In this document: in pieces, positions 2,169-2,412 of the stretch
Layout: every line of letters starts with the position of its first letter
Numbering within the stretch: the stretch's first letter is position 1
Virus record (IMG/VR): IMGVR_UViG_2693429622_000012
Length of the DNA stretch: 4,592 nt
Direction: 5' to 3' (one strand)
DNA from: a virus
Lineage: Duplodnaviria > Heunggongvirae > Uroviricota > Caudoviricetes
Translations under genes and position numbers: made by a program
Notes under the pieces: generated by a model
Database searches by the model: none
Seen by the model: only the letters and a program-made list of their open reading frames with translations
What the model was told of the DNA's origin: nothing

Positions 2169-2194
2169 GGCTCGCTTTTGCGGGCCTTTTTTTT
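2169..2194 (+). terminator. Rho-independent terminator closing the tRNA cluster
   Basis: 7-bp GC-rich stem ggctcgc/gcgggcc (one G-U pair), tttt loop, then a T8 run at 2187-2194. The paralogous position after tRNA copy 1 has no such hairpin. Confidence 0.7.
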
Positions 2195-2297
2195 AAATGT
2201 CTCACAATTCAGACGGTTGACAGTTGTCTGTTTTGCGGGGAGTTTGTTAAAAGAAACTGGCATGGTGAATCCCCCTGTGCGGAGGGGCAATCAGCGA
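2189..2297 (+). repeat. Conserved non-coding block A, copy 2
   Basis: Direct repeat of 886-994 with consensus -35 TTGACA at 2216-2221. Candidate late-promoter (pR'-like) leader; no convincing -10 hexamer could be placed by eye. Confidence 0.75.
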
Positions 2298-2352
2298 GTA
2301 GGTATATGGGATAATCGCGGATTCAGGTGCTGGTACTGAATTCACCGGGAGG

Positions 2353-2412
2353 CACCCGGCATCATGCAATGGCACATAGCGCCACTCTCCAGCCCTCTCC
2401 GGAGGGGCTTTT
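2353..2412 (+). repeat. Conserved non-coding block B, copy 1, ending in a hairpin plus TTTT (candidate terminator, tR'-like)
   Basis: cacccggcatcatgcaatggcacatagcgccactctccag then hairpin gccctc-tccg-gagggg(c) at 2392-2408 and tttt at 2409-2412. Homologous to 3744-3801. Confidence 0.55.

What the first reader, a model, noticed from the sequence alone, without database searches (positions are those of the whole stretch)
2189..2412. Blocks A and B together resemble a late-promoter leader to terminator unit (pR'/6S/tR'-like)
Block A carries a consensus -35 hexamer (TTGACA at 2216-2221; TTGACT in copy 1), and about 190 bp downstream block B ends in a GC-rich hairpin followed by TTTT. That spacing resembles the short constitutive late leader transcript of lambdoid phages that Q antiterminator modifies. 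Both blocks are conserved in two places each, consistent with a functional control element. Here it lies downstream of the methylase-tRNA cassette, which differs from the 933W-type order as I recall it. No convincing -10 hexamer was found by eye, so this is tentative.
Basis: inference. Interest (0 to 1): 0.5.

Follow-up and report, generated by a model that had tools for sequence, protein, structure and literature searches.

The report
Known prophage small RNA gene (STnc100)
The two conserved blocks are the front and back ends of one copy of STnc100, a well-known small-RNA gene carried by lambda-like prophages of E. coli and Shigella; they are not the phage's late promoter and terminator, so the finding is ordinary.

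Summary
Window 2189-2412 is a full-length copy of the prophage sRNA family STnc100 (Rfam RF02076: 2231-2420, 123.6 bits, threshold 47). It is 97.8% identical to EcOnc05 of E. coli O157 Sakai prophage Sp4, an Hfq-bound RNA of about 222 nt, whose published Northern probe matches 2289-2323 exactly. Block A holds a 5' extension plus the 5' half of a structured core. Block B holds the last hairpin, the 3' strand of the closing helix and the terminator. The hypervariable middle lies between them. Each "second copy" is a fragment that abuts an N-run. The pR'/6S/tR' reading fails. In 51 phage loci Q lies 354-4909 nt upstream, and a separate, unrelated late leader sits next to Q (annotated in 933W and Nil3). 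Published transcript sizes place the 5' end near 2200, so TTGACA is probably inside the RNA and not a -35. In passing, I found a conserved pseudoknot in this family that is absent from the Rfam model's structure line. Already known; low interest.

The parts
2169..2194 (+). Intrinsic terminator that closes the tRNA cluster (Ile2/Met-CAT, Arg, Arg at 1905-2154). It marks the upstream boundary of the element.
   Evidence: Terminator scan. Folds at -13.8 kcal/mol, z = -3.2. The same layout occurs in Sakai Sp4, Nil3 and NU14.
2190..2201 (+). TTTTTAAATGTC. This is the only sequence shared upstream of the element across 27 different flanks. It is a candidate weak -10 (TTAAAT 2193-2198) or an A/U-rich processing site. 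This is inference.
   Evidence: Transcript-size reasoning.
2202..2259 (+). 5' extension specific to the E. coli/Shigella phage variants.
   Evidence: Nearly invariant in 19 variants from 122 loci. Absent from Sakai Sp17/EcOnc06, whose RNA is about 45 nt shorter. Hexamer coordinates.
2260..2267 (+). 5' strand of the closing helix P1 (GCAUGGUG). It pairs with 2360-2367.
   Evidence: MFE fold. Compensatory changes in 38 sequences, e.g. GC 23 / AU 12 and UA 23 / CG 13.
2271..2287 (+). Hairpin P2 (CCCCC-UGUGC-GGAGGGG), the most conserved part of block A.
   Evidence: Rfam alignment. RNAalifold pairs with CG-to-UA changes.
2290..2296 (+). Linker AUCAGCG, the 5' strand of a pseudoknot. It pairs with 2328-2334 (UGCUGGU) in the loop of P4.
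   Evidence: Partner-swap test on 87 unique cores: at least 6 contiguous pairs in 87% vs a mean of 28% (maximum 39%) in swaps; 53 distinct pairings.
2297..2318 (+). Hypervariable middle (P3 region).
   Evidence: Alignments. The EcOnc05 Northern probe covers 2289-2323.
2319..2343 (+). Hairpin P4 (GGAUUCAG / CUGAAUUC). Its loop holds the pseudoknot partner.
   Evidence: Covariation at 5 of 6 pairs.
2345..2359 (+). Hairpin P5 (CCGGG-AGGCA-CCCGG), the start of block B.
   Evidence: It is invariant in all loci, but the loci were selected by this motif.
2360..2367 (+). 3' strand of P1 (CAUCAUGC). It has one C-to-U change relative to the consensus, giving a G-U pair.
2368..2390 (+). Single-stranded linker between the core and the terminator. 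It lies within the Hfq-crosslinked stretch of EcOnc05.
   Evidence: The Hfq-CRAC peak at Sakai 1179806-1179914 maps to about window 2292-2400.
2391..2412 (+). Intrinsic terminator of the sRNA (stem 2391-2409, U-tract 2409-2412). It is weakened by a one-base deletion in the 5' arm.
899..994 (+). Partial second copy: the 5' extension, P1 5' strand, P2 and linker, cut off by the N-run at 995-1006.
   Evidence: Rfam score 37.8 bits, below threshold. Window 1-994 is 99.4% identical to phage mEp460, where the element continues.
3745..3805 (+). Partial third copy: the 3' half of P5, P1 3' strand, linker and an intact terminator (3781-3802). It begins at the N-run at 3738-3744.

Best explanation
The interval is one copy of the STnc100 family of prophage small-RNA genes. 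This is the group published as EcOnc05/06/27, sRNA103 and, more distantly, PasD.

It occupies the 'moron' slot of a lambda-like prophage late region, directly after the ileZ-argN-argO tRNA cluster. Stx phages carry stx at that position.

Shown here:
- It matches the family model end to end.
- It is 97.8% identical to an RNA that is Hfq-bound and detected on Northern blots in a lysogen.
- Its core is a closing helix around three to four hairpins plus a pseudoknot, all supported by compensatory changes.
- It ends in an intrinsic terminator.
- Block A is the 5' extension plus the 5' half of the core. Block B is the 3' half of the core plus the terminator. The variable hairpin region lies between them.

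Inferred:
- It is made in the repressed prophage as an RNA of about 210 nt whose 5' end lies near 2200-2206. It comes either from a weak promoter at the conserved TTTTAAAT or from processing there.
- It acts in trans through Hfq-assisted base pairing. The targets of this variant are unknown.
- Its terminator also stops upstream tRNA or moron transcription from running into the lysis genes.
- After induction, Q-modified polymerase from the real pR', which lies next to Q outside this window, reads through it.
For: - Rfam STnc100 hit at 2231-2420, 123.6 bits against a threshold of 47, covering model positions 1-206.
- 97.8% identity over 223 nt to Sakai Sp4, with the same tRNA-terminator-element layout.
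- The EcOnc05 Northern probe matches 2289-2323 at 35/35. The EcOnc06 probe matches at 34/35.
- EcOnc05 is Hfq-crosslinked and about 222 nt (PMC4104026 Table S2).
- EDL933 has 11 transcribed STnc100 copies, one confirmed by Northern blot (PMC5331693).
- Convergent sRNA pairs are described 3' of PR' in eight Sakai prophages (PMC4104026; PMC7873438).
- In 933W the homologue lies 75 nt after stx2B and about 2.1 kb after the annotated pR'/qut/tR'.
- Q is upstream and co-oriented in 51 of 51 phage loci, at 354-4909 nt. The order Q, element, lysozyme/Rz holds in 12 loci of other genera.
- Structure: 13 of 26 consensus pairs show double changes, and the pseudoknot passes a partner-swap test.
- Family members elsewhere carry their own -10 just upstream of the core: 34 of 52, against 5-19 in control windows.
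- 3450 of 5426 complete E. coli genomes hold a match, and 672 hold most of the 2155-2640 query.
Against: - No transcript data exist for this genome.
- This copy has a weakened terminator stem (-10.2 kcal/mol, z = -0.28) and only four U. It also has a G-U pair in the closing helix, and it sits in an IS600-riddled, possibly decaying prophage. It may therefore be less active than EcOnc05.
- The whole-RNA MFE is not better than that of shuffles (z = -0.88).
- No convincing promoter was found for the long form. The -35 region upstream of TTTTAAAT is not conserved, and TAAAAG at the family's -10 position lacks the final T.
- The 5'-end estimate rests on approximate Northern sizes from homologues.
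- No trans targets are established for this variant.
- The convergent anti-sRNA partner (AsxR/AgvB) is absent here.
Confidence: 0.85

Rival explanations
1. One reading: blocks A and B are the phage late promoter, leader and terminator (pR'/6S/tR'). TTGACA is the -35, and Q loads there to read through the block-B hairpin.
For: - It is a short unit on the late strand that ends in a hairpin plus T-run.
- Its length is similar to lambda 6S RNA (own knowledge).
- It is always downstream of Q and co-oriented with it.
Against: - It is never adjacent to Q; the minimum distance is 354 nt and the median about 1.8 kb.
- A separate leader lies next to Q in 933W and Nil3 (annotated) and in PhiR5_1, NU14 and L112.
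- Those leaders align with one another and not with block A. Only 8-14-nt chance matches to the window were found.
- The lambda-type TAAATT...AACGAT motif is present after Q in NU14 and L112 and absent from the window.
- There is no -10 at 16-18 nt.
- The same element follows several unrelated Q types. It occurs twice in one prophage and in plasmid arrays.
- The pR'-tR' RNA of Stx phages is StxS, which is distinct from EcOnc27.
Confidence: 0.03
2. It is STnc100, but TTGACA is a working -35. A second or main start at about 2252 (TTGACA, 17 nt, GAGTTT), or at about 2260 from the extended -10-like TGT-TAAAAG, gives an RNA of about 153-160 nt that begins at the closing helix, as in other genera.
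For: - TTGACW is invariant in 122 loci.
- GAGTTT keeps the A at position 2 and the T at position 6.
- Other genera start transcription at the closing helix.
- The Rfam model begins at 2231.
Against: - The predicted sizes of 160 and 178 nt do not fit about 222 and about 235/247 nt for EcOnc05 and EcOnc27. A start at the beginning of the extension predicts 210 and 228 nt.
- In the 933W variant the hexamer 17 nt downstream is GCATTT, which lacks the key A.
- TAAAAG lacks the final T.
- TTGACA lies 25 nt from TAAAAG.
Confidence: 0.15
3. The RNA has no promoter of its own. It is cut out of longer transcripts (tRNA-operon read-through, the stx or moron mRNA 3' UTR, or late mRNA) by RNase E at the conserved UUUUAAAU, like 3'-UTR-derived sRNAs.
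For: - Only an A/U-rich 8-mer is conserved upstream, with no -35.
- In 933W the element starts about 45 nt after stx2B.
- It is strictly co-oriented with the late operon.
- StxS from the same phages is RNase E-processed.
Against: - A strong terminator lies immediately upstream here.
- The RNA is abundant in uninduced lysogens, where late transcription stops at tR'.
- Most family members in other genera have their own -10.
Confidence: 0.2
4. The pseudoknotted core is mainly a cis-acting element of the late transcript, such as a sensor or a processing or read-through control domain coupled to its terminator. It would not be an Hfq seed-pairing sRNA.
For: - It has a multi-helix junction plus a pseudoknot with invariant loops.
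- A terminator follows about 25 nt after the closing helix.
- It is co-oriented with Q and the lysis genes in 63 of 63 loci.
Against: - Homologues are Hfq-bound, and one is destabilised without Hfq.
- PasD has many RIL-seq partners.
- The next gene downstream varies, and a convergent sRNA gene is often interposed.
- Plasmid tandem arrays lack terminators between units.
Confidence: 0.1

Closest known systems
EcOnc05 (Sakai prophage Sp4), with EcOnc06 (Sp17) and EcOnc27 = sRNA103 (Sp5/933W), from Tree et al. 2014 (PMC4104026)
   Same: - Same Rfam family.
- 97.8% identical to EcOnc05, with identical tRNA-terminator-element synteny.
- The Northern probe matches exactly.
- Same strand as the late genes.
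   Different: - Four substitutions and one deletion, which weaken the terminator and put a G-U pair in the closing helix.
- No convergent anti-sRNA follows.
- An IS600 is inserted 187 nt downstream.
- EcOnc06 lacks the 5' extension, and EcOnc27 has a different variable middle.
PasD1/PasD2 of EPEC E2348/69 (PMC8550237; bioRxiv 10.64898/2026.05.13.724894)
   Same: Prophage-encoded, Hfq-dependent sRNAs near Q. The authors judge them to share ancestry and structure with STnc100.
   Different: Too divergent to be found by BLAST, with different proposed seed regions. They were not compared directly here.
Lambdoid late leader pR'-qut-tR' (lambda 6S RNA; StxS of Stx phages)
   Same: A short RNA made in the lysogen from the late-gene strand. 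It ends at an intrinsic terminator that Q-modified polymerase must pass, and it can be Hfq-bound.
   Different: - Position: next to Q, against 0.35-4.9 kb downstream.
- Sequence: unrelated.
- No qut or pause motif.
- Copy number, and independence from the Q type.
Morons of lambdoid phages (Juhala et al. 2000, as cited in PMC4104026)
   Same: An accessory unit in the late operon, bounded by a terminator and expressed from the repressed prophage.
   Different: It encodes a structured RNA and no protein, and its own promoter has not been demonstrated.

Membership tests
Lambdoid late leader (pR'-qut-tR', 6S/StxS type) | Promoter lies at or within about 100 bp of the end of the Q gene. | tested here: not met
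   There is no Q in the window. In 51 phage loci Q ends 354-4909 nt upstream. In the syntenic NU14 prophage it ends about 1.95 kb upstream, with a methylase and three tRNAs in between.
Lambdoid late leader (pR'-qut-tR', 6S/StxS type) | Recognisable sigma-70 promoter: -35, a 16-18-nt spacer, and a -10. | tested here: not met
   The scan reports no site in 2189-2260. The hexamer 17 nt after TTGACA is GAGTTT, 2 of 6. TTGACW alone is at chance frequency.
Lambdoid late leader (pR'-qut-tR', 6S/StxS type) | Q-utilisation or pause element, or sequence similarity to known late leaders. | tested here: not met
   There is no alignment with the 933W, Nil3, PhiR5_1 or NU14 leaders, and only chance matches of 14 nt or less. 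TAA[AT]TT-N5-7-AACGAT is found after Q in NU14 and L112 and not in the window. qut sites are Q-specific, so an unknown type cannot be excluded from sequence alone.
Lambdoid late leader (pR'-qut-tR', 6S/StxS type) | Intrinsic terminator 60-200 nt downstream of the start. | tested here: met
   Hairpin at 2391-2409 plus TTTT. This is a generic feature, and the stem here is weak.
Lambdoid late leader (pR'-qut-tR', 6S/StxS type) | One per prophage, co-varying with the Q allele. | tested here: not met
   There are two copies in the NU14 prophage, three to five in tandem elsewhere, and the same element follows several Q types.
Rfam RF02076 STnc100 | Covariance-model score above the curated threshold over the full model. 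| tested here: met
   123.6 bits against 47, model positions 1-206, E = 9e-28.
Rfam RF02076 STnc100 | Conserved secondary structure: a closing helix, the CCCCC/GGGG hairpin, and the CCGGG/CCCGG hairpin. | tested here: met
   The MFE fold reproduces it. 13 of 26 consensus pairs show compensatory changes in 38 sequences. There is also a pseudoknot.
Rfam RF02076 STnc100 | Prophage late-region context between Q/pR' and the lysis genes, on the same strand. | tested here: met
   Window 1007-2599 is collinear with the NU14 prophage order Q, methylase, tRNAs, element, DUF1737, holin. A DUF1737 start is at 4433. Supported.
Rfam RF02076 STnc100 | Expressed as a discrete, Hfq-associated small RNA. | not testable with these tools
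   This rests only on the literature for homologues: EcOnc05 by Hfq-CRAC and Northern blot, and STnc100_4 by Northern blot in EDL933.
Convergent sRNA dyad of the moron site (STnc100-type plus AsxR/AgvB anti-sRNA) | An anti-sRNA gene on the opposite strand immediately after the terminator. | tested here: not met
   No AsxR or AgvB match at E up to 1 in the window. They are present in 933W and Sp17. The window diverges from Sp4 right after 2412.

The most novel reading that the evidence does not exclude
The STnc100 core may be more than a seed-pairing sRNA. It is a pseudoknotted, multi-helix RNA domain conserved across prophage late regions of many Enterobacterales, and it is strictly co-oriented with Q and the lysis genes. 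Its fold may serve a dedicated partner, either a protein or a ligand, or it may act in cis on the late transcript in processing, stability or read-through control. The pseudoknot is not in the Rfam model's structure line, and none of the papers I read mentions it.
Probability: 0.15. Interest if true: 0.6.

Novelty: already known. Interest (0 to 1): 0.2.

Why it matters
Mainly as a correction. Conserved, repeated blocks after the tRNA cluster of lambda-like prophages are copies of a known small-RNA gene, and they should not be annotated as late promoters or Q sites. The real pR' lies next to Q.

The family has some medical relevance. The Stx2-phage member (EcOnc27) overlaps sequence features that predict haemolytic uraemic syndrome (PMC12711010), and its mechanism remains unknown.

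The pseudoknot and the strict co-orientation seen here give concrete handles for testing that mechanism.

Tried and rejected
- **Source contig:** an exact-match search for the IS600 junction in genome contigs found nothing, so the Q gene of this genome could not be located.
- **Hairpin around TTGAC:** I looked for a conserved hairpin or covariation in the 5' extension. The variants show no clean compensatory pattern, so no structure is claimed there.
- **Thermodynamic stability:** the whole-RNA fold has z = -0.88, which is uninformative. The structural case rests on covariation.
- **Published start sites:** I searched for mapped 5' ends of STnc100, EcOnc05/27 or PasD and found none. One term list was rejected by the tool.
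- **Coding explanation:** the ORFs overlapping the element (2106-2339 +, 2084-2290 -, 2327-2488 +) have no Pfam match, and two of them run into the tRNA. The 'hypothetical protein' labels in some phage records are taken as over-calls.
- **AsxR/AgvB partner:** absent.
- **Riboswitch-like reading:** considered and kept only as a low-probability rival.

Full report
**Layout of the window**

The window reads as follows:
- A partial tRNA cluster (1-231).
- An ORF with no Pfam match (342-695).
- Block A copy 1 (874-994), followed by 12 N (995-1006).
- A DNA methylase that lacks its N-terminus. The Pfam match starts at profile position 41 of 221, and the ORF runs to 1864.
- tRNA-Met(CAT), annotated in phage records as ileZ, then Arg and Arg (1905-2154).
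- A terminator (2169-2194).
- The finding itself (2189-2412).
- An IS600 on the minus strand (2599 to about 3737, 100% identical to Shigella sonnei copies), followed by 7 N (3738-3744).
- Block B copy 2 (3745-3805).
- An AT-rich stretch.
- The start of a DUF1737 gene (4433), cut by another IS600 end.

**Observation check**

The repeats, the hexamers and the hairpin are all present. TTGACA is at 2217-2222, one base off the stated coordinates. A single TTGACW is at chance level, with 6 found and 5.5 expected. No -10 follows at 16-18 nt.

The hairpin is weaker than the family norm because one C is missing from its 5' arm. It folds at -10.2 kcal/mol, against -20.3 kcal/mol for the fragment at 3781-3802.

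Both "second copies" are fragments that end or begin at the N-runs. Window 1-994 is 99.4% identical to phage mEp460, and the match stops exactly where the element's variable middle would begin. Window 1007-2599 is collinear with a prophage of E. coli NU14 at 96.6% identity. The third piece starts inside the element's last hairpin. These joins look like contig ends at repeat branch points. I could not tell whether they are scaffold gaps or masked bases.

**What it is**

Rfam gives a full-length match to STnc100 (RF02076) at 2231-2420: 123.6 bits against a threshold of 47.

The element is 97.8% identical to the locus after argO in Sakai prophage Sp4. Tree et al. 2014 list EcOnc05 there, an Hfq-crosslinked RNA of about 222 nt. 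Their Northern probe is the exact complement of window 2289-2323. The EcOnc06 probe (Sp17, about 177 nt) matches with one mismatch.

The 933W/Sp5 homologue is EcOnc27 (= sRNA103). It lies 75 nt after stx2B and converges with AsxR. EDL933 has 11 transcribed copies of the family. 3450 of 5426 complete E. coli genomes hold a match.

The two-block pattern follows from the anatomy of the RNA:
- Block A is a 5' extension, the 5' strand of the closing helix, the first hairpin and a linker.
- Block B is the last hairpin, the 3' strand of the closing helix, a linker and the terminator.
- The stretch between them is hypervariable.

**Why it is not pR'/tR'**

- In 933W the annotated pR', qut and tR' lie at the end of Q, about 2.1 kb upstream of the element.
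- In Nil3 the annotated tR' precedes the tRNAs, and the element follows them.
- In NU14 the sequence directly after Q reads GTGGTAAATT-TGCTCT-AACGAT-GGGC and is followed by a strong terminator. By my own knowledge of lambda pR' (-10 TAAATT, pause element AACGAT), this is a lambda-like late promoter.
- The same motif and a terminator sit between Q and the element in L112, where the two units are only about 185 nt apart.
- PhiR5_1 has a 933W-type leader and terminator right after Q.
- These leaders align with each other and not with block A. Only chance matches to the window exist.
- Across 51 phage loci, Q is always upstream and co-oriented, at 354-4909 nt with a median of about 1.8 kb. It belongs to several different Q types.
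- The element also occurs twice in one prophage and in arrays of three to five copies.
- The literature names the pR'-tR' RNA of Stx phages StxS and treats it as distinct from EcOnc27.

**Where the RNA starts**

In other genera, 34 of 52 non-redundant members have a -10-like hexamer starting 14-21 nt before TGAATCC, against 5-19 in control windows. This places the start at the closing helix.

The E. coli phage variants carry an extra extension of about 57 nt that is nearly invariant.

Predicted lengths from the start of that extension are 210 nt (EcOnc05) and 228 nt (EcOnc27). The published sizes are about 222 and about 235/247 nt. If TTGACW were the -35, the predictions would be 160 and 178 nt. 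Sp17 lacks the extension, is predicted at 159 nt, and is reported at about 177 nt. The differences between the RNAs fit well, so TTGACA is most likely transcribed.

Upstream of the extension, only TTTTAAAT(R)(Y)(Y) is shared among 27 different flanks. This could be a weak promoter or a processing site, and it remains unresolved.

**Structure**

RNAalifold on 38 diverse cores gives 26 pairs, 13 of them with compensatory double changes. The closing helix and the hairpin before TCACC are the best supported.

I also found that the linker after the first hairpin pairs with the loop of that later hairpin. In the window this is 2290-2296 with 2328-2334. At least 6 contiguous pairs occur in 87% of 87 unique cores, against a mean of 28% and a maximum of 39% in partner swaps. 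There are 53 distinct pairings. This pseudoknot is not in the Rfam structure line.

Because the loci were chosen by an exact match to the last hairpin, the invariance of that hairpin carries no information.

**Mechanism and verdict**

The best-supported reading is an sRNA gene expressed from the repressed prophage. It is Hfq-associated and acts in trans. Its terminator also insulates the lysis genes until Q-modified polymerase arrives from the true pR'.

The first step, identity, is shown. The remaining steps are inferred from homologues and context.

This copy may be impaired, because its terminator is weakened and it sits in an IS-ridden prophage. The finding is already known biology.

Noticed in passing
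window 2290-2296 with 2328-2334; family-wide in L001-L248: A conserved H-type pseudoknot in the STnc100 core. The linker after the first hairpin pairs with the loop of the hairpin before TCACC. It is supported by 53 distinct pairings and a partner-swap control, and it is not shown in the Rfam model's structure line.
   Followed up: partly
window 995-1006 and 3738-3744: Both N-runs sit at repeat boundaries, inside STnc100 copies, inside IS600 and inside the methylase gene. The three pieces match different prophage modules: mEp460-like at 99.4% and NU14-like at 96.6%. The window may be a scaffold of separate contigs. The methylase lacks about 40 profile positions at its N-terminus, and IS600 OrfA lacks about 20.
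   Followed up: partly
L086 894-2010 (Pantoea plasmid), L083 6323-7018, L006 7076-7753: STnc100 units occur in tandem: five in about 1.1 kb on a Pantoea plasmid, three in a Superficieibacter genome, and two in the NU14 prophage. In the plasmid array some units follow one another without an obvious terminator.
   Followed up: no
window 2468-2598 (+); L006 7310-7472: A possible further small-RNA gene. There is a strong extended -10 (TGCTATATT, 2468-2476). In NU14 the homologous stretch ends at a terminator (L006 7449-7472), which the IS600 insertion at 2599 has separated from it here. No Rfam family reaches threshold.
   Followed up: no
L006 5095-5183; L112 (minus strand) 385-470: The probable true late promoters of these prophages carry a lambda-like -10 (TAAATT/TAATTT) followed by AACGATGGGC and a short terminator. 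This gives a leader of about 65 nt right after a 273-aa Q.
   Followed up: partly
window 59-141: In the first tRNA cluster, ARAGORN does not call the middle position, which is argN in the second cluster (1988-2064). The sequence diverges in what would be the anticodon region, so it may be a decayed or intron-like tRNA. The same arrangement occurs in phage mEp460.
   Followed up: no
window 2202-2259: The 5' extension (TCACAATTCAG..GTTGACW..TTTGTTAAAAR) is almost invariant in 122 loci. It shows neither clear base-pair covariation nor a usable promoter geometry, so the reason for its conservation is unexplained. It could be a seed region or a protein site.
   Followed up: partly
phage and genome loci L001-L006, L127-L248, and 12 of L007-L126: The element is on the same strand as Q and the lysis genes in all 63 loci where those genes could be recognised. 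That is stricter than expected for a purely trans-acting RNA, given that its partner anti-sRNAs are antisense.
   Followed up: partly
window 3806-4430: An AT-rich stretch with several promoter-like sites on the minus strand and a 111-aa minus-strand ORF (3837-4172) that has no Pfam match. It is only about 72% similar to the region after stx2B and STnc100 in phage Stx2a_1447.
   Followed up: no
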